The notes: generated by a model from the sequence alone, not told the origin. Counted from the stretch's first letter, positions 36,672 to 51,116 are shown. The stretch is 64,000 bases of DNA from Verrucomicrobiales bacterium (GCA_038145765.1 JAYQQG010000002.1:8449-72448), one strand, 5' to 3'. Numbers and translations are program-made.

Positions 36672-36824
36672 AGGAACCTCCTTGCCGCGTCGTGCCCACC
36701 ACGCGGAAAAGGGAGGCTATCCTGAATTCAACTGAATGTCGAGTCGTAAGCCGGGGTAGGATGCGGGTTTGGAATTGCCTTGAACCCAAATCTCAGTATG
36801 CTGTGCGGCCCCATTTAGCACCCC

Positions 36825-38552
36825 ATGCGGCAAATCCCAACCATTGCCCTAAACGCTTTTATGGAACTCGTGCGTCAGCCGGTGTTCCTGTTGTTGTTTA
36901 CGGTTTCGCCTCTGATCATGATTGTTCTGGCGGCCGTGCCCTATTTCGGTTTTGGCGGCACGGACATGGGGCCGGTCAACTTTGACATTAAGATGGTCAA
37001 GGACGGGGCGTTGACCGTGATGTTTGTCTCCGGGCTGTTCGCCGCAGTGATTTGTGCGTCGTCGTCGCTCAGTCGAGAGGTCTCCACCGGCACAGCATTG
37101 GCGGTGCTGGCCAAGCCGGTGGGGCGCATGCACTTCATTATCGGGAAATATATCGGGATTGCCTCGGGGCTCACGGCGGGCACGTACCTGAACCTGATCG
37201 TGCTCTTGCTGGCCAGTCGGCAGGCGTATGATGCCTATGGCAACCCGGACATTGTGGGGGTGGTTACCTTTGGCCTCTTCGTGGTGCTGGCGTTTATCGG
37301 TGCGGGTTTACTGAACTATTTCCTCCACAAACCGTTTGTTCCCTGGGCCATGGGGCTGTTGGCGGTGGCGATGACGCTGGGGTTTCTGACGGTTTGCTCG
37401 CAGGACAAAGAACGAGCTTGGTGGTTTGTGGATTCGGGTGCGGGAATTTCGGCGGAGTTTTCGGACATATGGATCTTCACTGAAGGCGCGGGAATCGATG
37501 CGGATGGGAACCCGATTCCTTCCGAGGAAAAGGCGGGATTTGCGGATGATGTCGATTGGTCCATCTTGCGCTTGGCATTATTGTTGCTCTTTGCCCTGTG
37601 GATTTTGGCGGCTATAGCGCTGATGTGTTCGACGCGTTTAAGCTGGATGCCCACCATGATGATCTGTACGGGATTGTTTATCCTCGGGCTCATGTCGGAC
37701 TACCTTCTGGGCAATGCCTCCCAAGGGGGCGGTTTGTTAAGGGCAGGGGAAACCATGACTTGGAATCCGCCCGGCAATCAGGCGGGCGAGTATCTGGCGT
37801 TTCGAATGAAACCGCGCGGAGTGCCGCGTTTGGCGGATCAGGAATACAGGGTGCGGGTGGATGTCACTGGGCAGGAGCCGGATCTCAACGACTTCGATCG
37901 TGAGTCTGGCGTGGTGAACCTGGGCAGTCCGAAGGAATCGGTGGTGACCATTGAATATGATCGCCTGAAGCAGTTGTTGGATTACGAACTGAAGGAGCGG
38001 TGGAATTTGCCGCTGGAGACGGAAATGATTCGTGTGGGGCGACGCTTGTTGCCGGATCAGTTTCCCGGTGAATCGGTGGAACGATCCTTGTTGCCGGAGA
38101 TTATTGATGCGGTGAATGAACAGGAACCGAGTTTGGAACGCGATGAAGCCGTGCAGGACACCTTGATCGAATTTCGCCGCTTAGAGGATCAAATCAAGAC
38201 CCCCGTCGTGCCCGGGCATGTGGCTTTTTGGGTTGAGTTGGAAGAAGGGCGGCTGAACAAATGGGATTCATCCACCGAACGTGAAGTTCGCATCACACAA
38301 GGCTCGGTTTGGGCAAAATTCCTTTACGTTTTGGTGCCTAACTGGCAGCTTTTCTGGCTCTCTGATTCCATGACCGTGCAGGCCGAGGAATTGGGAGAGA
38401 GCCGGTTTAAGACGCAATACACTGAGGGCAAGGTGCCCACACGCTATTTGGCTACCGCAGCGATGTACGTGGTCCTGTATGTAGTGATGGCCTTGGCCTT
38501 GGCCATCTGGATGTTTGAGAGCCGGGAATTAAGCGGAGACGGCAATGGATAA
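36825..38552 (+). CDS. ABC-2-type permease-like membrane protein with a soluble insert of roughly 230 aa before the last TM helix
   Basis: 575 aa. It has multiple TM helices. The ABC-2-family-like signature is SREVSTGTALAVLAKPVGRMHFIIGKYIG. A charged, non-hydrophobic region spans about residues 300-535, followed by a final helix (AAMYVVLYVVMALALAIWMF). Confidence 0.6.
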   Translation: MRQIPTIALNAFMELVRQPVFLLLFTVSPLIMIVLAAVPYFGFGGTDMGPVNFDIKMVKDGALTVMFVSGLFAAVICASSSLSREVSTGTALAVLAKPVGRMHFIIGKYIGIASGLTAGTYLNLIVLLLASRQAYDAYGNPDIVGVVTFGLFVVLAFIGAGLLNYFLHKPFVPWAMGLLAVAMTLGFLTVCSQDKERAWWFVDSGAGISAEFSDIWIFTEGAGIDADGNPIPSEEKAGFADDVDWSILRLALLLLFALWILAAIALMCSTRLSWMPTMMICTGLFILGLMSDYLLGNASQGGGLLRAGETMTWNPPGNQAGEYLAFRMKPRGVPRLADQEYRVRVDVTGQEPDLNDFDRESGVVNLGSPKESVVTIEYDRLKQLLDYELKERWNLPLETEMIRVGRRLLPDQFPGESVERSLLPEIIDAVNEQEPSLERDEAVQDTLIEFRRLEDQIKTPVVPGHVAFWVELEEGRLNKWDSSTEREVRITQGSVWAKFLYVLVPNWQLFWLSDSMTVQAEELGESRFKTQYTEGKVPTRYLATAAMYVVLYVVMALALAIWMFESRELSGDGNG

Positions 38553-40545
38553 TATCGATAAGCGCGGAGGGTTTTGGAACCTGCTGATTACGCTGCTGGC
38601 GGCAACGGGGTCGATTGTATTGGCCGTGGTTACCCATTCGGTGACGAGCTATGGCATTGCGGCCTTCATGGTGCTGGGTTTTGTGGTGGCCCTTGTGAGC
38701 CTTATCCACATGGCCCTGCGCGAGCGCGAGCAACTGGAGGCCCGTGAACTGGAGGAGATTCAGTCGGGCGCCACCAACGAGGCTCTGTTTGAAGAGGGGG
38801 AAGTGCTGCCGGCCAAGCGGTCCCGGGAGCAGTTTGAAAAATGGGGGATGCCGGTCGTGTCGATTGTGATGTTGGTTTTGGCTGTGCTCGGGATTTATTA
38901 CATCACCACCAACCGGCTGAATGTGGCCTATGATACGCTCGATAGTTGGATGGTGCAGGGGAAATACATCGCGTTGTTTGGCGCAGCATTGATGGGGCTG
39001 GTGCTGTTCCTGCGGGGGCAATTCGCCTCCAACCTGTCGCGGATGGAGAAGCAGCGTTTTCTGCAGGCGGGTTCGGATTATGTGTTGTTCGGGGCGTACC
39101 TCAATTTTCTTTATGCCGCTGTCGTCGCCATTGCTTTTAAGGATGCCTCGGTGGATGTCTACGTGGGGACAGGTTTGGTCATTCTGCTCGGCATCGCCGC
39201 AGTGGAAAATCTGCTGAGCATGATTTTTGAAATCTACCGGCCGCGCGTGGCTGGTCGGCAATCGCGATTGTTGTACCAAAGCCGCCTGATCGGCTTGATT
39301 GCCAAGCCAGAAAACCTCTTTACCACGGCCGGCCAAATTCTGGACTACCAGTTTGGCTTCAAGGTTTCTGAGACGTGGGGGTACCAGTTCCTGCGCGAAC
39401 GCCTGGGGGTGGTGGTGGGCTTGCAGATTATCCTTCTTTGGCTGTCGACCACCGTGGTGGTGATCGAGCCGTCGGTGCGGGGAAAATTATTGGATGGTGG
39501 GAAAGAACCCAAATTGTTGGACCCGGGGATTCATGTCAAACTTCCGTGGCCTTTTGCCTCGGTGGAACGATTTGATCCGGATCGGATTCATACGTTTTAT
39601 GTGGGGCTGGAACCACTGGTGGAAGGCGTGCGCCCGGCTCGACCCAAGACTTGGCTCGAGCCGACGGGTAAAGACTATGATTCCAAGAAGAAAACCGGTG
39701 AATTGTTTTTTCTGACCGGCAGCGGGGATGCCACCGTTGAGGCCAACTTAATGGTGGTGAGTGTGCCGGTGCAGTATCGGATCCGAAGCAGTTCGAAGGA
39801 CGGCCAACAGAAGTCGTTGAAAGACGGTTGGATGACGTTCAGTGGAAAAGAGCTAAAAGATAGCCAAGGGAAGGCGATGGGGATTACGCATGCCGAGCAG
39901 TTGCTCCGTAACATTGCCCACCGTGAAGTGACTGAATATCTGCTGACGCATGATTTTAAAACGCTCATGCTTGAGGGGAGAGAACAGGCGCAGGCTGATT
40001 TGCGCGCTAAAATCCAAAAACGAGCTGAGGGCTTGGGGGTGGATATTTTGTTCGTGGGATTGGCCGATCTGCGGCCGCCTGCCGAATCCCCGGAGAATAT
40101 TCGCGAACGGGAAGATCCCGGCCCCGGAGGGGATCAGGGGCCCAAATTGAATGCGATGCCGGTTGCGGCAGCATTTGAAAATGAATTGCTGGCGATTGCC
40201 AGTGGGCGGTTGGATAAATTTAGCGCCCTCGAAGAGAGCAAACGCTTGGCTGCGGAACAAAAGAGTGCCGAAGTCGTGCTGGAATATGGTGCCAACGCGA
40301 AGGCGAGTTTGCAGGTTGAGCAGGCGAAGGCCCGTGCCGGAAGGATTCACGGAGCTGAACAGCCGTTTCATCAAGCCCCCAAGGTGTATCCGCTTTGGCT
40401 GTATCTGACGACGTTTGAACGGGCCGTGGAACATGCCCGTAAATTTGTGGTGGCCACAGAACATCACGAACTGGAAGTGGACCTGGATCTGCATGAGGCG
40501 ATCCGGCGTGGCATGACTGATATCAAAGTGCCGCCCAAGAAATAA
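38545..40545 (+). CDS. Polytopic membrane protein fused to a C-terminal SPFH/Band-7 (HflK/C-like) domain
   Basis: 666 aa. The first roughly 300 aa contain several hydrophobic helices. The SPFH entry motif follows (VVVIEPSVRGKLL...LDPGIHVKLPWPFASVERFDPDRIHTFYVG), then a long coiled/charged C-terminal part. It overlaps the upstream gene by 8 nt. Confidence 0.65.
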   Translation: MDNIDKRGGFWNLLITLLAATGSIVLAVVTHSVTSYGIAAFMVLGFVVALVSLIHMALREREQLEARELEEIQSGATNEALFEEGEVLPAKRSREQFEKWGMPVVSIVMLVLAVLGIYYITTNRLNVAYDTLDSWMVQGKYIALFGAALMGLVLFLRGQFASNLSRMEKQRFLQAGSDYVLFGAYLNFLYAAVVAIAFKDASVDVYVGTGLVILLGIAAVENLLSMIFEIYRPRVAGRQSRLLYQSRLIGLIAKPENLFTTAGQILDYQFGFKVSETWGYQFLRERLGVVVGLQIILLWLSTTVVVIEPSVRGKLLDGGKEPKLLDPGIHVKLPWPFASVERFDPDRIHTFYVGLEPLVEGVRPARPKTWLEPTGKDYDSKKKTGELFFLTGSGDATVEANLMVVSVPVQYRIRSSSKDGQQKSLKDGWMTFSGKELKDSQGKAMGITHAEQLLRNIAHREVTEYLLTHDFKTLMLEGREQAQADLRAKIQKRAEGLGVDILFVGLADLRPPAESPENIREREDPGPGGDQGPKLNAMPVAAAFENELLAIASGRLDKFSALEESKRLAAEQKSAEVVLEYGANAKASLQVEQAKARAGRIHGAEQPFHQAPKVYPLWLYLTTFERAVEHARKFVVATEHHELEVDLDLHEAIRRGMTDIKVPPKK

Positions 40546-40563
40546 CCTGATCGATTTACTACC

Positions 40564-41559
40564 ATGAAAAAAGCCGTCAACATTATCATCTTCGGACTGT
40601 TGCTGCTCATCTTTGGCTCCTACATGTTCACCTATCAGGTGCGGCAGGATGAGATTGCGTTCGTGAACACCTTGGGCAAGGACAGTGAGCCCATTGAAGA
40701 ACCGGGCTTGCGCTTCAAGTGGCCGTGGCCCATCCAGAGCGTTTATAAATTCGATGATCGCGTTCACGTGAAAACCACCGGGTACGCGCAGGTCATGACG
40801 GGTACGCCGGAAAACGAGGGGCTGGCCAGCGTGATGGTTCAGCTCTATTTCGGTTGGAAGATTGCAGATCCCAGCTTGTTTATGTCGGGGGCGAAGGGGG
40901 TGGATTCCGAGGCCCGCGTGAAATACGCCGAAGCCAAATTGCTGGATATTGTGAACGCGGAAAAGACTGAGCAAATCAGCAAAAAGAAAATCGATTTTCG
41001 CGTGCTGGTGGATGACGAGACGAGTGCTGAGGATGCCGGTGAAGCGGGAGGATTTTTTGATGATCTGGAATCCAATATTTTGCAAGCCGCCCGAGAGGAA
41101 GCGAAGGCGTTGGGCGTATCCATCGAATTTGTGGGGATCAGCCGTTTGGGAGTTCCGCAAAGCAATTTGGATTTATTGCTCAACGCGATGGTGACCCAGT
41201 GGACGAATTCTGCGGGAACCACGGTTTCCGAGGCGCAACAGGATGCAAAAACGATTCGGGAAAAGGCGAAGAGTGACAAGGAGAACGCCCTGCAACGGGC
41301 GCAGTTAAAGGCCGATGCCGCGTTGGCCAAGGCCCAAGCCGATGCGTTGCAGCAATTCAAGACCTTGGAGCAGGATCCGGAATTGGCGGCGTTCCTCATG
41401 CAACTGGAAGCCTTGGAGAAATCCGTCAAAAAACAAACTACCTTGATTTTGGATGATACGATGGGTCCGTTCGGGTTGCTGCGCGGGATCAAAGTACCCA
41501 CGGTGAAGCCTAATGGAGACGGGGCGCAAGCAGAAGACGGCGGCGAGGAAACTGAATAA
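40564..41559 (+). CDS. SPFH/Band-7 family protein (HflC-like)
   Basis: 331 aa. The N-terminal anchor is AVNIIIFGLLLLIFGSYMF. It is followed by YQVRQDEIAFVNTLGK...EPGLRFKWPWPIQSVYKFDDRVHV, and the C-terminal half is coiled-coil-like. Confidence 0.7.
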   Translation: MKKAVNIIIFGLLLLIFGSYMFTYQVRQDEIAFVNTLGKDSEPIEEPGLRFKWPWPIQSVYKFDDRVHVKTTGYAQVMTGTPENEGLASVMVQLYFGWKIADPSLFMSGAKGVDSEARVKYAEAKLLDIVNAEKTEQISKKKIDFRVLVDDETSAEDAGEAGGFFDDLESNILQAAREEAKALGVSIEFVGISRLGVPQSNLDLLLNAMVTQWTNSAGTTVSEAQQDAKTIREKAKSDKENALQRAQLKADAALAKAQADALQQFKTLEQDPELAAFLMQLEALEKSVKKQTTLILDDTMGPFGLLRGIKVPTVKPNGDGAQAEDGGEETE

Positions 41560-41580
41560 CCTGAGTGGTCCGAATACGTC

Positions 41581-42672
41581 ATGAGTGAAATACCCATTCA
41601 ACCCAAGGACACGCCGGAAGTGGATCTGGGAAATGAGGCCGGCTCGCGCGCCATGGAACAGGCGTTGCGGAGCAGCTTTACCATATTGAAGTTGGTGATC
41701 GCCGTCCTGGCCGTTTACCTCGTTTTCTCCAATACATTTACGGTCAAACAGGATGCAGAAGGGGCTGTCATTCTGAGATTTGGCCAAGCACAAACGGTGG
41801 ATCGAGCAAAAGTTTTTGAACCGGGGATTCGGTTTGCCTGGCCCTTCCCCATTGACGAAAAAGTGGAGATCGCCCGCGAGAAGCCGGTGAAAAGCGATAG
41901 CGCATGGTACGCCGCCATGGGGGCGGTGCAAATCGGGGATAACCCGAATCAGCGCCGGGTGGATGCTTCTCGGGATGGCTATGCGCTGACCTCGGATTGG
42001 AAGATCGTTCATCTGCAAGCAACGATGACATATGGGGTGGTGGACCCCAGCCTATTTGCCTTTGGCCACGCGGACGCCGTATCGGTCCTCCAGATGGTTT
42101 TGGATAGCAGTGTCTCCGCGGTGGCAGGCCAAATGAAGTTGGCCAGTATTAAGGGAAATCCGGCTCCCTTCGCCAAACGGGTTGAAGCACGCGCTCAATC
42201 GTTAGTGGATCAATATAATCTTGGAGTGGAAATAACCGGGCTCATTGTAAATAGCGATGATGTCGAGTTGCCTTTCCTTACTCGGGATGCTTTCGATACC
42301 TTTTCCAATGCCAGCTCACAGGCGGCGGAAGCCCGCAAAGCGGCCGAAGGATTCGCTAAGAGCATTAAGGCGGAATCCGGGGCCGTGGCGGCGATTGAAA
42401 ATCAGGCCAATAATCAGGCAGCCGCGTTGGCCGCTTCGGTGGATTCCCTAGCTCAACGGTTTGACGATATTCTGGAAAAATATCCCACGCCGATCGGTCG
42501 CCGTCGGTATATGGAGCAAATGTACTACGAAGCCATGGAGCGGATTGCGGAGAATGATGCCATCAAAATTTACCTCGTCTCCAAGGGCGGCAAACTCAAT
42601 CCTGCGAAGTTGCGCCTGTTGATCAACCAACCACCTCCTGAGGTTGAAGAGGACAAGGAGGAAGGAAACTAG
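41581..42672 (+). CDS. SPFH/Band-7 family protein (HflK-like)
   Basis: 363 aa. The anchor is LKLVIAVLAVYLVF. It is followed by FTVKQDAEGAVILRFGQ...EPGIRFAWPFPIDEKVEI, and the C-terminus is helical. Confidence 0.7.
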   Translation: MSEIPIQPKDTPEVDLGNEAGSRAMEQALRSSFTILKLVIAVLAVYLVFSNTFTVKQDAEGAVILRFGQAQTVDRAKVFEPGIRFAWPFPIDEKVEIAREKPVKSDSAWYAAMGAVQIGDNPNQRRVDASRDGYALTSDWKIVHLQATMTYGVVDPSLFAFGHADAVSVLQMVLDSSVSAVAGQMKLASIKGNPAPFAKRVEARAQSLVDQYNLGVEITGLIVNSDDVELPFLTRDAFDTFSNASSQAAEARKAAEGFAKSIKAESGAVAAIENQANNQAAALAASVDSLAQRFDDILEKYPTPIGRRRYMEQMYYEAMERIAENDAIKIYLVSKGGKLNPAKLRLLINQPPPEVEEDKEEGN

Positions 42673-42675
42673 GCC

Positions 42676-44655
42676 ATGCAGGAAGAAAACGCATCAACCC
42701 AGTCCGCGCCCGAAGAAAATCAGGATGCGGCCACCACGGTGAAATTCATCTTTGCCGGTATTGTCTTTATCATCAACGGGTTCCTCGCGGACTGGATCCT
42801 GGGTGCCGAATCGCGCGTGGGCGATTTCAGTGCGATGATCGGCGCGATCATTCTTGGTATCCGGATTTTTCGCACGACGGTTCGTGATTTGCAGCAGGGT
42901 TTGTTGACCACCAACGAGCTGGTGTCGATCGCGGTCTTGGCCACCTTTGCCCATGGCGATTATCACGCAGCGGGTCTGGTAGCGTTCTTCATGTTGCTGG
43001 CAGAAATGATCGAATCCCGCACCGCGTCGGGCGCTCAGGAGGCAATTCGCCGGCTGCTGGAACGTGCCCCGACCAAGGCCAGCCGGCTCTTGGAGGATGG
43101 CAAGGAAGAAGAGGTGCCGGCCAATGATCTGCAAGTAGGCGACCGCATCCGTGTGCGGCCCGGGGACAATGTGCCGGCGGATGGGGACATCCTTACTGGA
43201 AGCGGCTCGATCAATCAGGCAAATATCACCGGTGAATCCCTGCCGGTGGATAAGAAACCCGGCGATGCGGTGTTCCAGGGGACCATCAACATTGATGGCG
43301 TGTTGGAGGTCAAAGTCACCAAAGTGGGTGTGGAAACGGAATTCGGCCGGGTGCGCGAGTTGATCCTACAAGCGGCGCAATCGAAGACCCGTTTCGAGAA
43401 GATTGTCGATCAATACATGGGTTTTTATACGCCACTTGTGCTGGTGATCGGGGCGTTGGTCTGGGCGTTTACTCAGGATTTGAACCGGGTGATCTCGGTG
43501 TTCATTGTCTCCAGCCCGGTAGCCTTTATCTTGGCGACCCCCACCGCGATGGTGGCTGCGGTGGCTACGGCATCGCGTTTGGGGATCATGATCAAGCAGG
43601 TCAGCGATATCGAGCTGGCGGCGCGTATCAATGCATTCATTTTTGATAAAACCGGCACCATTACGACCGGCACTTTGAAGGTCAGCCGGTTGGCACCGGT
43701 GGAGGGCGTGAAGCCGGCGGAGCTGCTATTATTGGCGGCTTCAGCTGAACAATACAGCAATCACCCCACCGCCAAGGCAATTTTGGCCTTGGCCCGGGAA
43801 GCAGGCGTGGGTTTAGCTGAACCTCAGGATTTTGGCGAAACGGCTGGGAAAGGGGTGACCGCGCATGTCGATGGGGCCAAGGTCCTGGTTGGCCGGCAGG
43901 TGTGGTTGGAGGAAAATGAGGTGTCCGGCGACATTGCCGGTTCCATTGATCTGGATGAAGCACAGGGATACAGCCTGGTGCATGTGTCACGGGACGGGCA
44001 GTTCATTGGTTGGGTGGGCATGACTGATGAGATTCGCAGTGAAGCATCGGAATCCCTGAGTGAATTGCGGATCGAAGGGGTCAAGCGGCTGGCCATCGTC
44101 TCGGGAGATCGGGCGCCGGTGGCCGAACGTGTGGCGGCCGAGGTAGGCTGTGAAAATGTGCAGGCCGATTGTTTCCCGGCAGAGAAGGTGAAGTACGTTG
44201 AAGATCTGCGGGCACGCGGTTACAAGGTGGCGTTTGTCGGGGATGGCGTGAATGACGCGCCGGCATTAAAGGCCGGGGATATTGGTATTGCCATGGGCGC
44301 CGCCGGCAGTGATGTGGCGATTCAAAGTGCGACCATTGCCCTGATGAATAGCGACCTGCGCCGGCTGCCATTCCTGATGCATCTCTCGCGCATGACGCGT
44401 TCGGTGATCAACCAGAATTTTATTTTTGGAGTGCTCTTTGTGATCGTGGGCCTCGTGCTCGCAGCCTTAAACATTATTACCCCCGTGTTGGCCGCCATGT
44501 TAAACGTCTTGGGTTCGCTCTTTGTGGTGTTCAATAGCGCGCGTCTCGTGCGGGAAGGCGAAGAATTCGAGGCATTTGATGATTCGGCGGACGAAACCGC
44601 AGGGTCGGATTCGGCAGCCGAAGAAACGACCGAGGTAGTGACCGCGGCCGCCTAG
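42676..44655 (+). CDS. P-type ATPase of P1B-like architecture with no N-terminal metal-binding domain and no CPx motif; substrate unknown
   Basis: 659 aa. Motifs present are TGES (ITGESLP), DKTGT (nt 43645-59), the HP dipeptide (SNHPTAKA) and GDGVNDAPAL. The helix upstream of DKTGT reads VFIVSSPVAFILATPTA, so SPV occupies the position where P1B pumps carry CPC, SPC or CPH. Confidence 0.9.
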   Translation: MQEENASTQSAPEENQDAATTVKFIFAGIVFIINGFLADWILGAESRVGDFSAMIGAIILGIRIFRTTVRDLQQGLLTTNELVSIAVLATFAHGDYHAAGLVAFFMLLAEMIESRTASGAQEAIRRLLERAPTKASRLLEDGKEEEVPANDLQVGDRIRVRPGDNVPADGDILTGSGSINQANITGESLPVDKKPGDAVFQGTINIDGVLEVKVTKVGVETEFGRVRELILQAAQSKTRFEKIVDQYMGFYTPLVLVIGALVWAFTQDLNRVISVFIVSSPVAFILATPTAMVAAVATASRLGIMIKQVSDIELAARINAFIFDKTGTITTGTLKVSRLAPVEGVKPAELLLLAASAEQYSNHPTAKAILALAREAGVGLAEPQDFGETAGKGVTAHVDGAKVLVGRQVWLEENEVSGDIAGSIDLDEAQGYSLVHVSRDGQFIGWVGMTDEIRSEASESLSELRIEGVKRLAIVSGDRAPVAERVAAEVGCENVQADCFPAEKVKYVEDLRARGYKVAFVGDGVNDAPALKAGDIGIAMGAAGSDVAIQSATIALMNSDLRRLPFLMHLSRMTRSVINQNFIFGVLFVIVGLVLAALNIITPVLAAMLNVLGSLFVVFNSARLVREGEEFEAFDDSADETAGSDSAAEETTEVVTAAA

Positions 44656-44665
44656 AAAGGAAGGT

Positions 44666-45886
44666 TTGATGGAAACAACGAAGCAAGCTCCCGAACAAAC
44701 ACAAGCCGGCGTGACACAGGCGGACGATGTGGTGGTTGTGCGGTCGTTGGAAAAAGTATTCCGCGATTTTTGGGGACGCCCCAAGGCCAAGGCGATCAAT
44801 GATGTCAGCTTTGAAGTGCGCAAAGGCGAGGTGTTTGGGTTGCTGGGCCCGAACGGTTCCGGTAAATCAACCACCATCAAGGTGCTGTTGGGCCTGCTGA
44901 ACCCCTCACGCGGGGTGGCCCGTATCTTTGGCCGGTCGCCGCGCGATGTGAAAACCAAGGAACGCATCGGATATCTACCGGAAGAATCCTACTTGTATCG
45001 CTATTTGAACTCGGCGGAGACATTGGATTTTTTTGGGGGATTGTTCGCGCTGGATGGTGAGGAGAAAAAGCGTCGGTCCGAGCAGTTATTGGAAATGGTG
45101 GGTTTAAAGGGCGTGCAAATGCGCACGGTCGGCGAATTTTCCAAGGGCATGCAGCGCCGGATCGGTTTGGCGCAGGCGCTGATCAATGACCCGGACCTCG
45201 TGATTTTGGACGAACCCACTGCCGGCATGGACCCGGTGGGTTGCCGGGAGATCAAGGATTTGATTCTCAACCTCAAAGGCCGTGGCAAAACGGTGATCCT
45301 TTCCAGCCATCTGTTGGCGGATGTGGAGGATGTTTGCGATCGAGCGGTGATCTACTACGGCGGTAAGGTGCAGCAATACGGCACATTGGAAGAACTGCTT
45401 ACCGAACGGGATTCGGTCCAGTTCACCGTGCCCGCTTTGAGCGAAGCAGCGCAACAGGAGGTGTTGGAGGTCATGGAGCGGCATGTGGGCAAGGATTCCA
45501 TTCGGGTAGATAATCCCACACAAAACTTGGAAAGCCTCTTTCTCAACGTGGTGGAAAGAGCGCGCGCTTCGGATGATACATCCGGCGCGACTTCCGGCAG
45601 TGAAGTGGCGGAGTTCTTGCGGGCCGATGAACCGGTTCCGACGCAGGCGGAGAAGATGCTGGAGCGGTTGGCGGACAAGGATGCCCCACAAAAACCAGCG
45701 GCTCTGGAGAAAGCGCAGCCGGAAGCAACCCAGCCTGAACGGCCCAAAATGGATGAGGCCAAGCTGGATACTTTATCCGAAGCCAAACCGGAACCGAAAG
45801 CCAACGAGCCCGAGCCAAAGGCTGAAACTCAGAAAAAAAACCTCGATGAGGTGGATGACAAACTCTCCGGTTTGTTGGGCGACTAA
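44666..45886 (+). CDS. ABC transporter ATP-binding protein (ABC-2 subfamily-like) with a low-complexity Lys/Glu/Pro-rich C-terminal tail
   Basis: 406 aa. It has Walker A (GPNGSGKST), a signature motif (FSKGMQRRIG) and Walker B (LVILDEPTAGMD). The last roughly 100 aa are PEP/KAE-rich. Confidence 0.9.
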   Translation: MMETTKQAPEQTQAGVTQADDVVVVRSLEKVFRDFWGRPKAKAINDVSFEVRKGEVFGLLGPNGSGKSTTIKVLLGLLNPSRGVARIFGRSPRDVKTKERIGYLPEESYLYRYLNSAETLDFFGGLFALDGEEKKRRSEQLLEMVGLKGVQMRTVGEFSKGMQRRIGLAQALINDPDLVILDEPTAGMDPVGCREIKDLILNLKGRGKTVILSSHLLADVEDVCDRAVIYYGGKVQQYGTLEELLTERDSVQFTVPALSEAAQQEVLEVMERHVGKDSIRVDNPTQNLESLFLNVVERARASDDTSGATSGSEVAEFLRADEPVPTQAEKMLERLADKDAPQKPAALEKAQPEATQPERPKMDEAKLDTLSEAKPEPKANEPEPKAETQKKNLDEVDDKLSGLLGD

Positions 45887-45904
45887 CGGAGGAGGATTTC
45901 GGGC

Positions 45905-47653
45905 ATGAGCCGCAGCAAACTATTGGCCATTGTCTTTCTCACATGGAAGGCGGCGCTGCGCTACCGTTTTTTTTGGGTGATGTTGGCGCTGCTGGCCTTG
46001 GCCGTGGGCGGCATTCCCTTGCTGGTTAAAGATGACGGTTCGGCTGAGGGGATGACTCAAATCCTCATCACTTACACCTTGTCCATGATCACGGCGATCC
46101 TCGGGGCCGCGACCCTCTGGATTTCAGCCGGGGCCTTAGCCACGGAGATAGAGAATTTCCAATTGCAAATGGTGGTGACCAAGCCCATTCCACGCTGGCA
46201 AATTTGGTTGGGCAAATGGCTGGGAGTGATGAGCATGAATTTTATTCTACTCCTTTTTGCCGGTGGGGTGGTGTATGGCATGGTGGAATACCGTGCCCGT
46301 ACCCTGACTAGCGATGCGATGGAGCGTTTGGAAGATCGCCAGGATGACGAGATTTACAGAATGGCTGCCATGTCGCAGATCGTGCCGTTCGAGATCGATC
46401 CGGAAACCAACCGGCCCAAGTTGGATGACAACGATCAGCCGATCATGCGGGATATTCAGGAAGTACGCCGGGATGTGGCAGGGATTGAGGAAAAACGCCT
46501 GCGCGATACCGTATTAATTGCCCGGGCGAGTATCCCGATCAGCGATCAAATTCGGGTGGGGAACGATGAGGCGCTGGAGGACTGGATTCAAAGTCTGAAG
46601 AAACAATATTTGCCCGTTAGGTTGAGGCAGGTATTGCGCGTCAAAAACGAGGCGGAACAGCAACGGGGTGTGGGTCCTGATCAAATGTCCCAGGAACTGG
46701 ACAGCTATGAAGTGAGGCAGGCTGAAATCCAGATCGAAGAAGAGATTCGGAATTATTCTCAAGTCATCATCCCGGATGGACGGGTGCAGTTGTTTTTCCA
46801 GAAACCGAAAGGCTGGAAGCCCGGCACGGAGGAAAAAATGATTTTGCGTGTTTATTTCGAGGACCCCAAGGTGAGTTTTAAAAACGATAACCGTTACGGA
46901 TTACAGTTGTTTTGTGGGCCGAAAGACCAGCCGGATTTGGTGCGGACTCCCGACGGATTAACACTGGATGCCCGGACGAAACATGAATTTCAAATACCGA
47001 CCTCATTAGAGTCCAACATCAAGGATGGCGGTCGGCGAAGTATCTTTGATGAAGATGGATTGGTTTCGGTGGCCCTAATGAATCGCGATCAAGGCGGTCC
47101 TAAACACAACTACCGGGCACAGCTTAAAGTGCCGTTTCTGGATCATCGCGGGCGAGTTGGGGGTGAAGGGGTGGAGCTGATGTATCATGAAGGCGGGTTT
47201 GGAAAAAACTACCTGCGCGCTCTGGGGATCGTCTTTGCGTGGTTGGGAGCCTTGGCGGCATTGGGATTATTTGCGGCCAGCTTTATGTCATTTGCCATGT
47301 CTGCCTTCGCCTGCTTGGGCGTGTTGATCATCTCTTTCTGTGTTGGTTTGATGCAGGATGTGGTGGAGGATGGCACGGTGATGCAAACCTACACAGAAGG
47401 CCAGCGTGATTCGTCGATTGTCGATACCTATGCCGTCTGGTCCTTCAAGGCGATGATCGCTGCGATCAAGCCGGTGAAGGATTATTCGCCGATCGAAAAA
47501 CTCACTGAAGGGCGAAGTATAACCTGGGGTGAACTTTTGCGTGCTTACGGATATATTTGGGGATTGTCCGGTCTGACACTCGGTGTGCTGGGTAGTTGCA
47601 TCTTGTCCAGGCGGCAGTTAGCCATCACGAGTACCAATGGAGGCGGATCATGA
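45905..47653 (+). CDS. ABC-2-type permease-like membrane protein with a large soluble insert
   Basis: 582 aa. It has N-terminal helices and an ABC-2-like signature, ATEIENFQLQMVVTKPIPRWQIWLGKWLG. A charged insert of roughly 270 aa follows, then C-terminal helices (GIVFAWLGALAALGLFAASFMSFAMSAFACLGVLII). Confidence 0.6.
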   Translation: MSRSKLLAIVFLTWKAALRYRFFWVMLALLALAVGGIPLLVKDDGSAEGMTQILITYTLSMITAILGAATLWISAGALATEIENFQLQMVVTKPIPRWQIWLGKWLGVMSMNFILLLFAGGVVYGMVEYRARTLTSDAMERLEDRQDDEIYRMAAMSQIVPFEIDPETNRPKLDDNDQPIMRDIQEVRRDVAGIEEKRLRDTVLIARASIPISDQIRVGNDEALEDWIQSLKKQYLPVRLRQVLRVKNEAEQQRGVGPDQMSQELDSYEVRQAEIQIEEEIRNYSQVIIPDGRVQLFFQKPKGWKPGTEEKMILRVYFEDPKVSFKNDNRYGLQLFCGPKDQPDLVRTPDGLTLDARTKHEFQIPTSLESNIKDGGRRSIFDEDGLVSVALMNRDQGGPKHNYRAQLKVPFLDHRGRVGGEGVELMYHEGGFGKNYLRALGIVFAWLGALAALGLFAASFMSFAMSAFACLGVLIISFCVGLMQDVVEDGTVMQTYTEGQRDSSIVDTYAVWSFKAMIAAIKPVKDYSPIEKLTEGRSITWGELLRAYGYIWGLSGLTLGVLGSCILSRRQLAITSTNGGGS

Positions 47654-49260
47654 GCGAAGTGCGTGCCAATACGATGGATACCCCGCCGAAGGTCGTGCTG
47701 ATTGCCGTGATTGTGGCTAGTTTAGTTGGGCTATTCATGACTCAGGGGAACCTGAATGAACAGCGTGGTGAACTGAGCCCGACGTATTTGGAGCCACTTC
47801 AGGATGCTCCTCCGATGCTGGCGTTGACAACGCAGGCATTGGGCGGGTTTCGAGGGTTGATTTCCTCCTATCTCTGGTTGCGGGCCAATGAGATGCAGCT
47901 GCAGAAAAAATATCAGGAACAAATGCAGCTGTCCGAGTGGGTGGCCCAATTGCAGCCCCATGTATCCACTGTTTGGAGAAACCGGGCGTGGAACATGGCC
48001 TACAATATTTCGGTCACCTACCCGGATGCGGAAACACGATGGAAATACGTCTCGGAAGGGGTGTCACTGCTGCGGGATCATGGCATCAAATATAACCCGC
48101 ATGAACCGTTGATTTATCACGAGCTGGCCTGGACATATCAACACAAGATCGGACACAACATGGATGATCATCATCGCTTTTATAAATTGCGCTGGCTGCA
48201 GGCGATGTCCAACGTGCTTTGGCAAAATGAACTGGCCGCTAATAACGCGCGTGGAGTGCCCAACTTTGATGAATTGATTAATCCGCCAAACCCGGAAGTA
48301 GCCGCCCGCGCCCAGCGACTCCGTGAAGAGTACAAACTAGATCCGCGCGAGATGAAGGCGATTAACGAAAAATATGGCCGCGTCGAAAAGGAGGATGGCG
48401 AAGTGGTGTACGCGTTGGATTGGCGCAAGCCAGAGACGCACGCGATCTATTGGGCGGTGGTTGGGCTGAAACGGTGCCGACACAATCCATCCAAGGAAAA
48501 TGACCTGCGCAAATTGGAGCGCATTGTATATCAATCCATGATGTACAGCTTTGATCGCGGTAAATTGAACACGCCTTCAGGTCGCGAGATTCCGCCAGAC
48601 CAATATTTTAACAATCGACTGACTGTTGTGCCGAATCTGGAATTAACCCAGAAAACCCACGAAGCCTATATGGAAATGACCGAGTTGGCGCAAAAAGAAC
48701 GCGATGCCAACACCAGCGGCACCTATGAGATGGCTCACCTGAATTTCATCCGTCGAGTGGTGGAGTGGAACTACTATTATAATCGTGAAGCAGAATCCAT
48801 AAAATGGTTGAAGGTCGCCTTGGAGATGTACCCGGAGAAGATGAAATTTTTCACGGGATACAATCATGAGACCAATACGTATGATTTGGATAAGTTCGTG
48901 CTATTCCGGCTCGAGGATGGCGCCAAGCGGGGGGGGATCGACAAGACCTTGGCGATTCTCATCGGCCTGATGATCCGCCACTACACGCATTTGGCAATGG
49001 GGGAAGAAGACGATGCGGTAAAATACTTTGAGATGGCGGAGCAATTGCACAAACGGTTTACCGATCGGTTTGCAACGGCCGCAGAAAACCGTGTAAGCCT
49101 GCCCTCCTTTGAGGCCGTGCGTCATAGTCGATTGCGGGCATTTTTGTTGGAAGAGGATCCTGTGTTGGTGGCCCGATTGCGCACCGCGTTGGGGTTGAAG
49201 GAAGGCGAACTGCCCGAAGAGCCCACGGTGGAAGGTCCCCAGCCGAACCCCAACGAATAA
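47650..49260 (+). CDS. Membrane-anchored hypothetical protein that appears all-alpha; no family recognised
   Basis: Trimmed to MSEVRANTMDTPPKVVLIAVIVASLVGLFM, giving an ATGA overlap with the upstream stop. It has a single N-terminal helix. The body is Trp/Tyr-rich and helical-looking (GGFRGLISSYLWLRANEMQ..., WRNRAWNMAYNISVTYPD, LIYHELAWTYQHKIG). Confidence 0.55.
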   Translation: MSEVRANTMDTPPKVVLIAVIVASLVGLFMTQGNLNEQRGELSPTYLEPLQDAPPMLALTTQALGGFRGLISSYLWLRANEMQLQKKYQEQMQLSEWVAQLQPHVSTVWRNRAWNMAYNISVTYPDAETRWKYVSEGVSLLRDHGIKYNPHEPLIYHELAWTYQHKIGHNMDDHHRFYKLRWLQAMSNVLWQNELAANNARGVPNFDELINPPNPEVAARAQRLREEYKLDPREMKAINEKYGRVEKEDGEVVYALDWRKPETHAIYWAVVGLKRCRHNPSKENDLRKLERIVYQSMMYSFDRGKLNTPSGREIPPDQYFNNRLTVVPNLELTQKTHEAYMEMTELAQKERDANTSGTYEMAHLNFIRRVVEWNYYYNREAESIKWLKVALEMYPEKMKFFTGYNHETNTYDLDKFVLFRLEDGAKRGGIDKTLAILIGLMIRHYTHLAMGEEDDAVKYFEMAEQLHKRFTDRFATAAENRVSLPSFEAVRHSRLRAFLLEEDPVLVARLRTALGLKEGELPEEPTVEGPQPNPNE

Positions 49261-49301: not shown

Positions 49302-51116
49302 GTGCGTCTGATCCCCTTGAGTTTAACACTGGTCGTGGTGTTGGGCTGTGGCCGTCCCGCTTCCAACGTGGAGCAGGGAGCCAAGGAGCAGATTCTTCAC
49401 CTCGGCAATGGTGCCGAACCGCAGTCACTGGATCCGCACCTCGCCACCAGTGTCAGTGCCCATCACATCATGTCGTCGCTGCTGGAAGGCCTGATGGCGG
49501 AACATCCCCAGACCCTGGAGCCGGTGCCGGGTGTGGCCGAAAGTTGGGTGATCTCGGAGGATCGCAAAACCTACACCTTCACCCTGCGCAAGGACGCCAA
49601 GTGGTCCAATGGCGACGACGTCAAGGCGAGCGATTTCGTTTACAGCTACCGCCGCATTCTCAACCAGGAACTCGGCGCGCAATACGGATACATGGTGCAG
49701 GCGCTTAAGAATGGCAAACTTTTCAACGCCGGCAAAAAATGTCCCGAAGGTCTCTGGCTCTTCACCAAGGACGGACCGCCCAAGGTGATCGCACATCCGG
49801 AGGAGTGGGCGGCGTTGGATGATGCAGGTCGCCAAGAAGCCCTCGCTGAATTGAAGCCGGAGGATAAAGAAGCCACCGGCAAATGCACGTTTTGTGAAAA
49901 TCATCCCAAGCTGCAATCCTTGGATTGGGAAGACTGGGATCGATGCCAAGTGGGAGCCCGGGCAATTGATGGCCGGACGCTGGAGCTGACACTCGAGAAC
50001 CCCACACCATATTTTCTGGAGTTGCTGAATCATTACACCTTTTGGCCGGTGCATCCGCCCACGATTGAAAAATTTGGGGCGCGGATCACACGCGGCACAG
50101 GCTGGGCACTGCCGGGCAAGTATGTGGGAAACGGCCCGTTTGTTCTGGATGAATGGCGGATCAACGCCCGCATGGTGGTGAAGAAGAGTCCGACCTATTG
50201 GGATCGCGACACGGTGAAGCTCAGTGAGATCCGTTTTTATCCGCTCGAAAGTGTGGACACCGAGGAACGCGCCTTCCGCTCGAAATTTCTTCATCACACT
50301 AATACCGTGCCGCCTCATCGCATCGATTGGCACAAACAACACAATCCTGGCCTGCTGCATTTGGATACGTATTTGGCCGTATATTTTTATCGATTCAACA
50401 CCACGAAAAAACCGCTGGACGATGTGCGCGTGCGCCGGGCACTGGCATTGGCGATCGACCGCGAAGCGCTCGTGAAACACGTGATGCGCGCGGGCCAGCA
50501 GCCGGCCTATAGTTTTACGCCACCCGGCACGGGCGGATTCACCGCCGGGCCGCAGTTTCAATCCGACTTGCCGGAAGCCAAACGGTTGATCGCCGAATAC
50601 CTCAAGGAGACCGGCCAATCCTCCCTGCCAAAAATTGAGCTGCGATACAACACGAGCGAGAGTCACAAAAAAGTGGCGGAGGCCATTCAGGCGATGTGGA
50701 AGCAGGAGCTGGGCATTGATGTAGTCTTGGATAATCAGGAATGGAAAGTCTTTCTGAAGGCTGTGGAGAAAATGGATTTCACCATCACACGGGCCGGTTG
50801 GACCGGCGATTACAACGATCCCAATACCTTCATGGATATGTGGGTGACCGATGGGGGGCACAACAACACGGGCTGGTCCAACGCGCGCTATGATGAGCTT
50901 ATCGAAATGGCCGCCAAGGAAGGCGACAAGGAAAAGCGCAAGGAATACTTCCGTGAGGCCGAAAAGATTTTGGCGGAAGAGATGCCCATGTTGCCGATTT
51001 ATTTTTACGTGCGGGCCAGCCTGCGAGACCAGAGCGTGAAGGGCTGGTGGCCAAACGTGCTCGATCACCATCCCTACAAGCACGTGTATCTTGAGGACGT
51101 GCCCCGGAAGGATTGA
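49302..51116 (+). CDS. Peptide/nickel ABC transporter substrate-binding lipoprotein (family 5, OppA/DppA-like)
   Basis: 604 aa with a GTG start. The lipobox is VVLGCG. Family-5 SBP strings are GVAESW, TFTLRKDAKWSNGDDVKASDF, GNGPFVL and GWTGDYNDP. Confidence 0.88.
   Translation: MRLIPLSLTLVVVLGCGRPASNVEQGAKEQILHLGNGAEPQSLDPHLATSVSAHHIMSSLLEGLMAEHPQTLEPVPGVAESWVISEDRKTYTFTLRKDAKWSNGDDVKASDFVYSYRRILNQELGAQYGYMVQALKNGKLFNAGKKCPEGLWLFTKDGPPKVIAHPEEWAALDDAGRQEALAELKPEDKEATGKCTFCENHPKLQSLDWEDWDRCQVGARAIDGRTLELTLENPTPYFLELLNHYTFWPVHPPTIEKFGARITRGTGWALPGKYVGNGPFVLDEWRINARMVVKKSPTYWDRDTVKLSEIRFYPLESVDTEERAFRSKFLHHTNTVPPHRIDWHKQHNPGLLHLDTYLAVYFYRFNTTKKPLDDVRVRRALALAIDREALVKHVMRAGQQPAYSFTPPGTGGFTAGPQFQSDLPEAKRLIAEYLKETGQSSLPKIELRYNTSESHKKVAEAIQAMWKQELGIDVVLDNQEWKVFLKAVEKMDFTITRAGWTGDYNDPNTFMDMWVTDGGHNNTGWSNARYDELIEMAAKEGDKEKRKEYFREAEKILAEEMPMLPIYFYVRASLRDQSVKGWWPNVLDHHPYKHVYLEDVPRKD

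What the first reader, a model, noticed from the sequence alone, without database searches (positions are those of the whole stretch)
36825..49260. Eight-gene cluster combining ABC-2-like permeases, three SPFH paralogs, a cysteine-less P1B-like ATPase and an unknown anchor protein
**Seen in the sequence.** Eight co-directional ORFs are packed with operon-like spacing.
- 36825-38552 and 38545-40545 overlap by 8 nt.
- The following gaps are 18, 21, 3, 10 and 18 nt.
- The last junction, 47650/47653, is an ATGA overlap.
- A 153-nt divergent intergenic region lies upstream.

**Gene order.** ABC-2-like permease with a soluble insert; polytopic-membrane-SPFH fusion; HflC-like SPFH; HflK-like SPFH; P-type ATPase; ABC ATPase; second ABC-2-like permease with a soluble insert; TM-anchored helical protein.

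**Established knowledge.** SPFH proteins build oligomeric membrane scaffolds or cages (HflK/C around FtsH, flotillins, and stomatin with NfeD). ABC-2 systems with one ATPase are usually exporters.

**Inference.** I know of no described system that places a triple-SPFH scaffold between the components of an ABC-2 transporter together with a P-type pump. One possible reading is an SPFH-caged multi-transporter assembly for envelope or ion homeostasis in a PVC bacterium. This is the best candidate for an undescribed system in the window.
Basis: partly seen in the sequence, partly recalled or inferred. Interest (0 to 1): 0.75.

Follow-up and report, generated by a model that had tools for sequence, protein, structure and literature searches.

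The report
Conserved SPFH, ABC-2, P-type pump cluster
Eight tightly packed membrane-protein genes (three scaffold proteins of the SPFH family, a two-permease ABC-2 transporter with its ATPase and a helical partner, and a metal-type P-type pump) form a gene set that is kept together in hundreds of Verrucomicrobiota and also in Planctomycetota, has no described function, and may show which membrane machines bacterial SPFH scaffolds serve.

Summary

**Conservation.** g1-g5 are co-linear in every assessable Verrucomicrobiota locus among the 80 fetched (75/75, 76/76, 70/71, 64/64). g6-g7 follow in 50/56 and 49/55.
- The g2 fusion (6-TM bundle plus SPFH) forms about 820 clusters at 50% identity and extends into Planctomycetota.
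- In Phycisphaerae the same eight genes recur in a different order: pump, reversed g1, then g2 g3 g4 g6 g7 g8.
- Two Planctomycetota loci lack the pump. The constant core is therefore the SPFH trio plus the ABC-2 system plus g8, with the pump as a usual partner.

**The pump.** "Cysteine-less" is a local derived state. 52 of 56 orthologues have CPC in TM4 and almost all keep a TM6 His. The window's clade has SPV and Asn, yet is under strong purifying selection.

**Annotation.** g8 is a membrane-anchored TPR-like solenoid with no Pfam match and no specific structural match. No literature or database function was found.

**Best reading (inferred).** An HflK/C-like periplasm-facing scaffold organises a dedicated ABC-2 machine and a P1B pump. 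This is a new variant of SPFH-client systems.

The parts
36775..36802 (+). Candidate promoter of the cluster: TTGCCT, 16 nt, TATGCT, ending 22 nt before the g1 ATG.
   Evidence: The block is conserved in an alignment of the window with L001-L003, L005 and L006; the TATG.T core is invariant. It occurs once in the window. It scores 8 of 12, below the threshold of the consensus scan, so support is weak and rests on conservation only.
36825..38552 (+). g1: ABC-2 family permease A (575 aa). Carries two clade-specific inserts in loops predicted to face the periplasm.
   Evidence: Pfam ABC2_membrane_2 scores 27.1 bits. 27 and 24 of 32 orthologues match ABC2_membrane_4 and ABC2_membrane_2. Orthologues are about 320 aa outside the window's clade. 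Present next to g2 in 75/75 assessable loci. Forms a minimal pair with g2 in L087.
38545..40545 (+). g2: fusion of a six-helix TM bundle, a conserved cytoplasmic amphipathic segment, a seventh TM helix, and an HflK-like SPFH domain with a long coiled coil (666 aa).
   Evidence: Band_7 E 1e-8. AF2 model pLDDT 80.8. The best Foldseek match is HflK, 7vhq, E 7e-11. Loop K+R counts of 2/0/7/1/4/1/7 fit an N-in, SPFH-out topology. The N-terminal domain family has 822 clusters at 50% identity, almost all 610-870 aa.
40564..41559 (+). g3: HflC-like SPFH protein with a single N-terminal TM helix (331 aa).
   Evidence: Band_7 E 9e-11. TIGR01932 scores 73 bits, below the 134-bit cut-off. Aligns to E. coli HflC over residues 3-297, E 1e-9. 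Present in 76/76 loci.
41581..42672 (+). g4: HflK-like SPFH protein with a single TM helix (363 aa).
   Evidence: Band_7 E 2e-11. TIGR01933 scores 87 bits, below the 159-bit cut-off. Aligns to E. coli HflK, E 5e-9. Present in 70/71 loci.
42676..44655 (+). g5: P1B-type ATPase (659 aa) without an N-terminal metal-binding domain. TM4 reads SPV instead of CPC, and TM6 has Asn instead of His.
   Evidence: TIGR01525 scores 536 bits and TIGR01512 scores 461 bits. The alignment to CopA places SPV on CPC. DKTGT, TGES and GDGVNDAP are present. The orthologue motif table is. dN/dS is 0.019 against L001. Present in 64/64 loci.
44666..45886 (+). g6: ABC ATPase (DrrA/GldA-like) with a charged C-terminal tail of about 100 aa. 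The probable start is ATG 44669.
   Evidence: ABC_tran E 1e-31. TIGR01188 scores 206 bits, below its cut-off. The start context is shown. Identity is 56-68% across Verrucomicrobiota and 46-56% to Planctomycetota.
45905..47653 (+). g7: ABC-2-like permease B (582 aa) with a large extramembrane domain between TM3 and TM4, predicted to be periplasmic.
   Evidence: Weak hits to ABC2_membrane_3 and ABC2_membrane_2. Orthologues are flagged PF12679. The insert is present in all orthologues.
47650..49260 (+). g8: membrane-anchored all-alpha TPR-like solenoid (536 aa), translationally coupled to g7 through an ATGA overlap.
   Evidence: No Pfam, NCBIfam or PDB sequence match. 768 homologues, none with a functional name and none carrying a Pfam match except stray extra domains on three listed hits. 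AF2 pLDDT is 84.7 and pTM 0.81. Foldseek returns only generic TPR hits with TM-scores of at most 0.33. The N-terminal ~180 residues are 36-41% identical to the Planctomycetota counterparts.

Best explanation
The eight genes encode one inner-membrane module that is conserved across PVC bacteria.

**Shown.**
- The gene set {ABC-2 permease A, 6TM-SPFH fusion, HflC-like, HflK-like, P1B pump, ABC ATPase, ABC-2 permease B with a large extramembrane domain, anchored alpha-solenoid} stays together across two phyla, even though the gene order is rearranged.
- All eight genes are under purifying selection.

**Inferred.**
- The three SPFH paralogues assemble, like HflK/C, into a periplasm-facing ring or cage anchored in the inner membrane.
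- g2's polytopic bundle and its conserved cytoplasmic segment tether the ABC-2 transporter (g1+g7 with two copies of g6) and its partner g8.
- The P1B pump is a co-client of the same microdomain.
- The module works as a scaffolded export or hand-over station. The pump releases a soft-metal ion (ancestral CPC/His site) at the periplasmic face. The ABC-2 machine, through g7's periplasmic domain and g8, uses ATP to pass on or expel the cargo.
- In the window's marine Verrucomicrobiales clade the pump's three soft ligands were replaced (Cys-Pro-Cys to Ser-Pro-Val, His to Asn). Its ion specificity has therefore changed while the assembly is retained.
For: - **Synteny in Verrucomicrobiota.** g1 75/75, g3 76/76, g4 70/71, g5 64/64, g6 50/56 and g7 49/55 assessable loci, in the same order and on the same strand. 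Flanking genes are not conserved, so the boundaries are g1 and g8.
- **Same genes, different order in Planctomycetota.** L083 and L086 (all eight confirmed by tblastn) and L089-L091 (by called-gene Pfam domains and sizes) show pump(+), g1(-), then g2 g3 g4 g6 g7 g8. L084 and L085 show the pump directly upstream of g1/g2. Uabimicrobium has g2-g3-g4-pump-g6.
- **One pump subfamily.** All linked pumps share the tail FNSAR(L/M)VRxGE and a TM6 His.
- **Translational coupling.** g1/g2 overlap by 8 nt and g7/g8 share ATGA. The g1-g2 pair alone persists in L087.
- **SPFH trio resembles HflK/C.** Sequence and fold evidence are. The topology places SPFH and the permease inserts on the same, periplasmic, side.
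- **Strong constraint.** dN/dS is 0.02-0.10 against L001.
- **Metal theme.** CPC/His is ancestral. The Uabimicrobium locus is flanked by an ABC-3 (Znu/Mnt-type) permease and an RND/HlyD pair. The only non-SPFH structural neighbours of g2 are CDF zinc transporters.
Against: - No physical interaction has been tested. Linkage shows a shared function, not a shared complex.
- The g5/g6 junction carries gaps over 300 nt in 13 of 52 loci, several holding unrelated ORFs, and six loci lack g6-g8 within 10 kb.
- Two Planctomycetota loci (L082, and L088 from strain RAS1) lack the pump, so the core machine can work without an adjacent pump.
- The CDF resemblance is weak: TM-score 0.46-0.55 on the target, and 0.23-0.25 normalised to the query. 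Canonical CDF metal-site residues and a Pfam Cation_efflux hit are both absent.
- The window's own pump lacks every canonical soft-metal ligand.
- The cargo of the ABC-2 transporter is unknown.
- The side of the membrane on which the g8 solenoid lies could not be decided.
Confidence: 0.45

Rival explanations
1. The SPFH/ABC-2/solenoid core exports or extracts a non-metal envelope component, such as a lipid, glycolipid, lipoprotein or polymer. In this reading the P1B pump is a frequently co-located but mechanistically separate ion pump.
For: - The core without the pump exists in L082 and in strain RAS1.
- g7 has the layout TM1-3, periplasmic domain, TM4-6, as in extractor-type ABC permeases.
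- g8 is an anchored solenoid of the adaptor type.
- The window's pump has lost its metal ligands, yet the core is unchanged.
Against: - The same pump subfamily is re-linked to the core in two different gene orders in two phyla, which is hard to explain without a functional tie.
- In Verrucomicrobiota the pump sits between the transporter's own components in 64/64 loci.
Confidence: 0.25
2. g3/g4 (with g2) are simply this lineage's HflK/HflC and act on FtsH. The neighbouring transporters are either FtsH quality-control substrates or merely co-regulated envelope genes, not residents of the scaffold.
For: - g3 and g4 align to E. coli HflC and HflK, and public annotation calls them HflK/HflC.
- HflK/C-FtsH is the best structural match of g2's SPFH part.
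Against: - Scores are far below the equivalog cut-offs: 73 against 134 bits, and 87 against 159 bits.
- The gene order is HflC-like then HflK-like, with a third paralogue fused to a 6-TM bundle.
- No ftsH or hflX was seen among the window ORFs scanned or in the loci with called-gene tables.
- Linkage is to ABC-2 genes, with overlapping start and stop codons.
Confidence: 0.2
3. Two independent operons (g1-g5 and g6-g8) that merely lie side by side.
For: - Insertions at the g5/g6 junction, including Doc/Fic-like and small Cys-rich ORFs.
- Six loci have g1-g5 but no g6-g8 within 10 kb.
Against: - g1 is a permease with no ATPase of its own in g1-g5; the only ABC ATPase is g6.
- In Planctomycetota g6-g8 directly follow g4, and g1 remains adjacent.
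- In the window the gap is 10-13 nt.
Confidence: 0.08

Closest known systems
HflK/HflC-FtsH complex (E. coli; PDB 7vhp/7vhq, 7wi3, 9cz2)
   Same: - Paralogous SPFH proteins with an N-terminal TM anchor, a periplasmic SPFH domain and a long coiled coil.
- g3 aligns to HflC, g4 to HflK, and g2's SPFH part is the best Foldseek match to HflK.
- The concept is shared: a hetero-oligomeric SPFH cage delimiting a membrane patch for a client.
   Different: - Three paralogues rather than two, one of them fused to a 6-TM bundle.
- Scores fall below the equivalog cut-offs.
- The gene order is reversed.
- The linked genes are an ABC-2 transporter and a P1B pump, not ftsH or hflX.
PacL-CtpC/CtpG/CtpV 'effluxosomes' of Mycobacterium tuberculosis (PMC13460109)
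   Same: P1B-type pumps are co-encoded with dedicated membrane scaffold proteins and are thought to work in membrane platforms.
   Different: PacL proteins are small proteins that the review terms scaffolds; the review never mentions SPFH or flotillin. No ABC-2 component is involved. The P1B-6 hallmark spacing N-X18-H-N-X-(S/T) is not met here on reading the alignment.
NosDFY(L) copper-delivery ABC machine
   Same: - An ABC-2 permease of the PF12679 family with a DrrA-like ATPase, working with a periplasmic partner in metal trafficking.
- The only ABC-family PDB hit of the g7 profile is NosY, but it is not significant: E 3.5, and it ranks below an unrelated light-harvesting protein hit at E 0.3.
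   Different: No NosD beta-helix or NosL homologue is present. The permeases here are heterodimeric, and SPFH genes and a P-type pump are present.
Flotillin (FloA) microdomains supporting ABC-dependent heme uptake in Staphylococcus aureus (PMC10147376)
   Same: An SPFH scaffold is needed for the function of an ABC ATPase or transporter (abstract listed).
   Different: That system uses a flotillin-type SPFH protein. It also serves importers, and the partners are not described there as co-encoded (the last point is my own knowledge, not checked here).
LptB2FGC (own knowledge, not tested here)
   Same: The permease carries a periplasmic domain between TM3 and TM4, and there is a single-TM partner protein. 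This matches the layout of g7 and g8.
   Different: There is no LptF/LptG Pfam match. LptB scores below its cut-off: 146 against 240 bits. g8 is an alpha-solenoid, not a beta-jellyroll.

Membership tests
SPFH / Band 7 superfamily | SPFH domain detected above the Pfam gathering score | tested here: met
   g2 scores 35.8, g3 42.5 and g4 44.6 bits against a cut-off of 23.6. The g2 model superposes on HflK, prohibitin, stomatin and erlin.
HflK/HflC (FtsH modulators) | Score at or above the NCBIfam equivalog cut-offs TIGR01932 and TIGR01933 | tested here: not met
   g3 scores 73.3 against 134.4, g4 scores 86.6 against 159.4, and g2 scores 38.4 against 159.4.
HflK/HflC (FtsH modulators) | Type II topology: N-terminal TM helix, periplasmic SPFH domain, C-terminal coiled coil | tested here: met
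   g3 and g4 each have a single N-terminal TM helix with K/R on the N-terminal side. g3 aligns nearly full length to HflC (3-297) and g4 to HflK over residues 130-345. g2 has the same C-terminal part but seven TM helices.
HflK/HflC (FtsH modulators) | Functional and physical association with FtsH | not testable with these tools
   No ftsH or hflX was seen among the window ORFs scanned or in the loci with called-gene tables. Whole genomes could not be scanned.
P-type ATPase, subclass P1B | Catalytic motifs DKTGT, TGES and GDGxNDxP, and a score above the TIGR01525 cut-off | tested here: met
   All motifs are present in the translation. TIGR01525 scores 536.5 against 346.25, and TIGR01512 scores 460.6 against 313.5.
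P-type ATPase, subclass P1B | Cysteine-containing TM4 motif of a described subtype (CPC, CPH, SPC, PCP, SCA or CSC) | tested here: not met
   The window has SPV aligned on the CPC of CopA. The subtype motifs are taken from PMC13460109. 52 of 56 cluster orthologues do have CPC. L051 has CPV, L029 has CPS, and Uabimicrobium has CPS.
P-type ATPase, subclass P1B | Transition-metal transport | not testable with these tools
   This needs a biochemical assay. Loss of Cys, Cys and His in the window's clade argues for altered specificity.
ABC-2 (type V) transporter | Permease matching the Pfam ABC-2 membrane families | tested here: inconclusive
   g1 scores 27.1 against 27.2 bits, and 27 of 32 orthologues match ABC2_membrane_4 with a best E of 3e-10 for ABC2_membrane_2. 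g7 scores 22 bits, below the cut-offs, but its orthologues carry PF12679 hits with E at or below 1e-5.
ABC-2 (type V) transporter | Cognate ABC ATPase of the DrrA/NatA/GldA type | tested here: met
   ABC_tran scores 110.5 bits. The best NCBIfam hits are DrrA and GldA, both below their equivalog or subfamily cut-offs. Walker A (GPNGSGKST) and Walker B (ILDEPT) are present.
NosDFY copper-delivery system | NosD periplasmic beta-helix protein and NosL chaperone | tested here: not met
   No such Pfam or NCBIfam hit in any of the eight products.
Cation diffusion facilitator (for the g2 N-terminal bundle) | Cation_efflux profile match and the TM2/TM5 Asp/His metal site | tested here: not met
   There is no Pfam hit. 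The conserved polar TM residues are N12, S52, Q113, E221 and N222, not DxxxD or HxxxD. Only a weak fold resemblance is seen: E 8e-4 to 1e-2, and TM-score 0.46-0.55 on the target.
Anti-phage defence systems | Match to PADLOC models beyond a generic ABC ATPase | tested here: not met
   Seven of the eight products have no hit, and g6 gives only generic ATPase hits. Together with the conserved synteny and correlated sequence divergence across genes, this argues against a defence island.

The most novel reading that the evidence does not exclude
This is a previously unrecognised class of bacterial SPFH nanocompartment whose clients are hard-wired in the genome and are transporters rather than a protease.

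In this reading a three-paralogue HflK/C-like cage, docked through a 6-TM fusion subunit, encloses an ABC-2 machine, its solenoid partner and a P1B pump. Together they create a confined periplasmic hand-over chamber specific to PVC bacteria. The clade that lost the CPC/His ligands would then be a natural experiment in re-tuning the pump.
Probability: 0.3. Interest if true: 0.85.

Novelty: new variant of a known kind. Interest (0 to 1): 0.68.

Why it matters
Cryo-EM has recently shown that SPFH proteins (HflK/C, prohibitin, stomatin, flotillin, erlin) build cages on membranes. For most bacterial SPFH proteins, however, the enclosed client is unknown (own knowledge of the field).

- **A genetically defined client set.** This locus links a specific ABC-2 transporter, a solenoid partner and a specific P1B pump subfamily to an SPFH trio.
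- **A directly testable question.** Co-purification, cryo-EM and genetics in a cultured carrier can ask what a bacterial SPFH scaffold organises. One such carrier is Phycisphaerae strain RAS1, although its locus lacks the adjacent pump.
- **New families and a new pump variant.** The locus defines two unannotated protein families: g8, and the 6-TM domain of g2. It also shows a P1B pump lineage that replaced all three soft-metal ligands yet stays under very strong constraint. That is of interest for P-type ATPase ion selectivity.

Tried and rejected
- **Defence system.** PADLOC gave nothing beyond generic ATPase hits.
- **RNA elements.** No Rfam family and no tRNA was found in the window.
- **Internal promoters or terminators.** None lies in a junction, and the counts do not clearly exceed shuffled expectation.
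- **PDB sequence searches.**
  - g8 gave nothing significant.
  - The g1 profile gave nothing.
  - The g7 profile gave only a non-significant NosY hit.
- **Foldseek of g8.** Only generic TPR solenoids came back, with TM-scores of at most 0.33, so no enzyme or known adaptor fold can be assigned.
- **CDF-transporter reading of g2's 6-TM bundle.** Kept as a weak lead only, because the site residues and a Pfam match are absent.
- **P1B-6 membership.** The N-X18-H-N-X-(S/T) spacing does not fit, on reading the alignment.
- **Extension of the cluster.** Upstream and downstream genes are not conserved beyond the window's own clade. The downstream Opp operon and the upstream FHA-kinase are clade-level neighbours only.
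- **Literature.** The 2009 SPFH operon survey mentions no ABC or ATPase partner.
  - Whole-genome scans for ftsH or canonical hflKC.
  - A second genome-contig scan.

Full report
**1. Observation.**
- g1/g2 overlap by 8 nt.
- The following gaps are 18, 21, 3, 10 and 18 nt.
- The g7/g8 junction is an ATGA overlap with a GGAGG 7 nt upstream.
- A 153-nt divergent spacer lies before g1.
- g6 probably starts at ATG 44669, three bases after the TTG, because AAGGAAGG lies just upstream.
- None of the consensus promoter-like or terminator-like sites falls in a junction. Their numbers do not clearly exceed shuffled expectation.
- A block TTGCCT-16-TATGCT at 36775-36802 is conserved in the five closest related loci fetched. 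It is a weak candidate promoter.

**2. Identities.**

| Gene | Assignment | Key scores |
|---|---|---|
| g1 | ABC-2 permease | 27.1 bits against a cut-off of 27.2; 27 of 32 orthologues match ABC-2 families |
| g2, g3, g4 | Band_7 (SPFH) | g3 aligns to E. coli HflC nearly end to end; g4 aligns to HflK over residues 130-345; both far below the equivalog cut-offs |
| g5 | P1B-type ATPase | TIGR01525 536 bits; DKTGT, TGES and GDGVNDAP present; no N-terminal metal-binding domain |
| g6 | DrrA/GldA-like ABC ATPase | ABC_tran E 1e-31 |
| g7 | Weak ABC-2 match | below the cut-offs in the window |
| g8 | No match | none in Pfam, NCBIfam or PDB sequences |

PADLOC gives nothing specific. There is no Rfam family and no tRNA in the window.

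The surroundings are ordinary chromosomal genes:
- enolase, pgk and tpiA;
- aspartokinase;
- an Opp importer;
- PSCyt/PSD1/DUF1501 genes, which are typical of PVC bacteria.

**3. Conservation in Verrucomicrobiota.**
A genome scan with g2 found more than 575 relatives. The best 80 loci are nearly all labelled Verrucomicrobiota MAGs (Verrucomicrobiales, Limisphaerales/Pedosphaera), apart from a few odd MAG labels.

Counts in the same order and on the same strand, among loci long enough to judge:

| Gene | Present / assessable |
|---|---|
| g1 | 75/75 |
| g3 | 76/76 |
| g4 | 70/71 |
| g5 | 64/64 |
| g6 | 50/56 |
| g7 | 49/55 |

g8 follows g7 in 48 loci.

Identity to the window falls to about 30-35% for the SPFH proteins. 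It stays at 57-67% for the pump and 56-68% for the ABC ATPase.

Flanking genes are not conserved, so the unit runs from g1 to g8. The FHA-kinase upstream and the Opp operon downstream are neighbours only in the window's own order-level clade.

**4. Beyond the phylum.**
An exhaustive search with the 300-aa N-terminal bundle of g2 found 822 clusters at 50% identity. Nearly all full-length members are 610-870 aa, with the domain at the N-terminus. The 6TM-SPFH fusion is therefore the family norm.

Distant members come from Planctomycetota: Phycisphaerae, including the cultured strain RAS1, and Ca. Uabimicrobium.

| Loci | Arrangement |
|---|---|
| L083, L086, L089, L090, L091 | pump(+), g1(-), then g2 g3 g4 g6 g7 g8 |
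| L084, L085 | pump next to g1/g2 |
| Uabimicrobium (L081) | g2 g3 g4 pump g6 |
| L082, RAS1 (L088) | the seven-gene core without the pump |
| L087 | only g1-g2 |

For L083 and L086 all eight genes were confirmed by tblastn. For L089-L091 the arrangement rests on the called genes' Pfam domains and sizes; in L091 the ABC ATPase was not called, leaving a gap where it should lie.

The same genes staying together after rearrangement in a second phylum is the strongest evidence for a functional unit. It also shows that the SPFH trio plus the ABC-2 system plus g8 is the constant core, with the pump as a usual partner.

**5. The pump.**
In the alignment to CopA, the window's SPV sits on CPC.
- Among cluster orthologues 52 of 56 have CPC, and almost all have a His in TM6.
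- The window, L001, L003 and L005 have SPV and Asn.
- L051 has CPV, and L029 has CPS.
- The Planctomycetota pumps have CPC or CPS with His, and they share the C-terminal signature FNSAR(L/M)VRxGE.

All described P1B subtypes keep at least one Cys in this motif (PMC13460109).

The cysteine-less state is therefore a derived feature of one marine clade, and it removed three soft ligands at once. The gene is not decaying: dN/dS against L001 is 0.019, the lowest in the cluster. dS is near saturation, so these ratios are approximate.

**6. The SPFH trio.**
The AF2 model of g2 (pLDDT 80.8) shows these elements in order:
- six long TM helices;
- a low-confidence but highly conserved amphipathic segment (residues 229-283, containing most of the invariant residues);
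- a seventh TM helix;
- an SPFH domain;
- a 70-residue coiled-coil helix.

Foldseek ranks HflK/HflC first (E 7e-11), then prohibitin, stomatin, erlin, QmcA and flotillin. The only other hits in the top 50 are CDF zinc transporters. They are weak, and neither the site residues nor a Pfam match supports them.

Loop K+R counts of 2/0/7/1/4/1/7 put the N-terminus and the conserved segment in the cytoplasm and the SPFH domain in the periplasm, as in HflK/C.

**7. The ABC-2 part and g8.**
- g1 is about 320 aa in most species. The two inserts of the window's version are clade-specific and fall in loops predicted to face the periplasm.
- g7 always has a large domain between TM3 and TM4, also predicted to be periplasmic.
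- g8 models confidently (pLDDT 84.7, pTM 0.81) as one TM helix plus an alpha-solenoid. Only generic TPR neighbours were found.
- g8's N-terminal ~180 residues are 36-41% identical between phyla.

**8. Soft spot.**
The g5/g6 junction exceeds 300 nt in 13 of 52 loci. Several of these gaps hold Doc/Fic-like genes or a small Cys-rich membrane ORF. Six loci have g1-g5 without g6-g8 nearby.

The module may therefore be transcribed as two units in some species. In the window the gap is 10-13 nt.

**9. Interpretation.**
What is shown is a conserved, selected gene set. What is inferred is that an HflK/C-like periplasm-facing scaffold organises a dedicated ABC-2 machine with its solenoid partner, and usually a P1B pump. 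The ancestral theme would be soft-metal handling.

The rivals are:
- a non-metal envelope exporter with an incidental pump;
- ordinary HflK/C acting on FtsH;
- two unrelated operons lying side by side.

The last is the weakest. g1 has no ATPase other than g6, and in Planctomycetota g6-g8 directly follow g4.

**10. Comparison with what is known.**
Searches found no description of this arrangement. The 2009 survey of prokaryotic SPFH operons mentions no ABC or ATPase partner. Public annotations say only 'HflK/HflC', 'SPFH domain protein' or 'hypothetical'.

The nearest concepts are:
- HflK/C-FtsH;
- the PacL-CtpC effluxosomes of M. tuberculosis;
- NosDFY;
- flotillin-dependent ABC function in S. 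aureus.

I rate the finding a new variant of a known kind: an SPFH scaffold with genetically fixed clients, here transporters, plus two unannotated protein families.

Noticed in passing
window 34182-36671 (-): An FHA, Ser/Thr kinase and LRR protein (829 aa) is transcribed divergently from g1. The same gene sits upstream of the cluster in 12 of the fetched loci (L001-L003, L005-L007, L016, L018, L021, L036, L051), all Verrucomicrobiales-type, and not in Limisphaerales. It may be a clade-specific regulator.
   Followed up: partly
window 49302-54890 (+): An Opp-type peptide importer starts 41 nt after g8: OppA-like SBP_bac_5, two BPD_transp_1 permeases, and a fused double ABC ATPase of 597 aa. 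An OppA homologue also follows g8 in L001, L003, L005, L021, L024 and L051 only.
   Followed up: partly
L018:14037-14393, L027:10004-10366, L036:8300-8656: In three loci a small ORF of about 118 aa lies between the pump and the ABC ATPase. It has a Cys/His-rich N-terminus (CxxHPxxxxxGxCxxCGxGLCxxC) and hydrophobic stretches that look like two TM helices. Other loci carry Doc/Fic-like genes at the same junction.
   Followed up: partly
L081 (Ca. Uabimicrobium helgolandensis, CP165719.1) 3575-8676 and 17583-19165: The Uabimicrobium version of the cluster is flanked by an RND pump with a HlyD/CzcB-like adaptor (divergent) and by an ABC ATPase plus ABC-3 (Znu/Mnt-type) permease pair. This is a metal-transport neighbourhood.
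   Followed up: no
L013, L021, L025, L051, L075 (start of the g7 orthologue): Some g7 orthologues carry an extra N-terminal extension of about 130-190 aa, with hydrophobic stretches, that is absent from the window's g7.
   Followed up: no
window 30555-34180 (+): Two consecutive Sel1-repeat proteins (725 and 482 aa) lie upstream of the kinase. Homologues recur upstream in 8 related loci.
   Followed up: no
window 6319-16867 (+): The region holds a 1430-aa GDSL-lipase/DUF7133/HEAT protein and a calcineurin-like phosphoesterase. It also holds a PSCyt1/PSCyt2/PSD1 protein with a Laminin_G_3 domain, followed by DUF1501, which is the gene pair typical of Planctomycetes and Verrucomicrobia.
   Followed up: no
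window 26653-27711 (+): A deoxyhypusine-synthase-family gene (PF01916, E 2e-40) lies directly after aspartokinase and a PALP enzyme.
   Followed up: no
window 38545-40545, residues 229-283 of g2: The most conserved stretch of g2 (RPR...LDYQFGFKVSETW) is predicted to be cytoplasmic, and AF2 models it with low confidence. It may fold only against a partner.
   Followed up: partly
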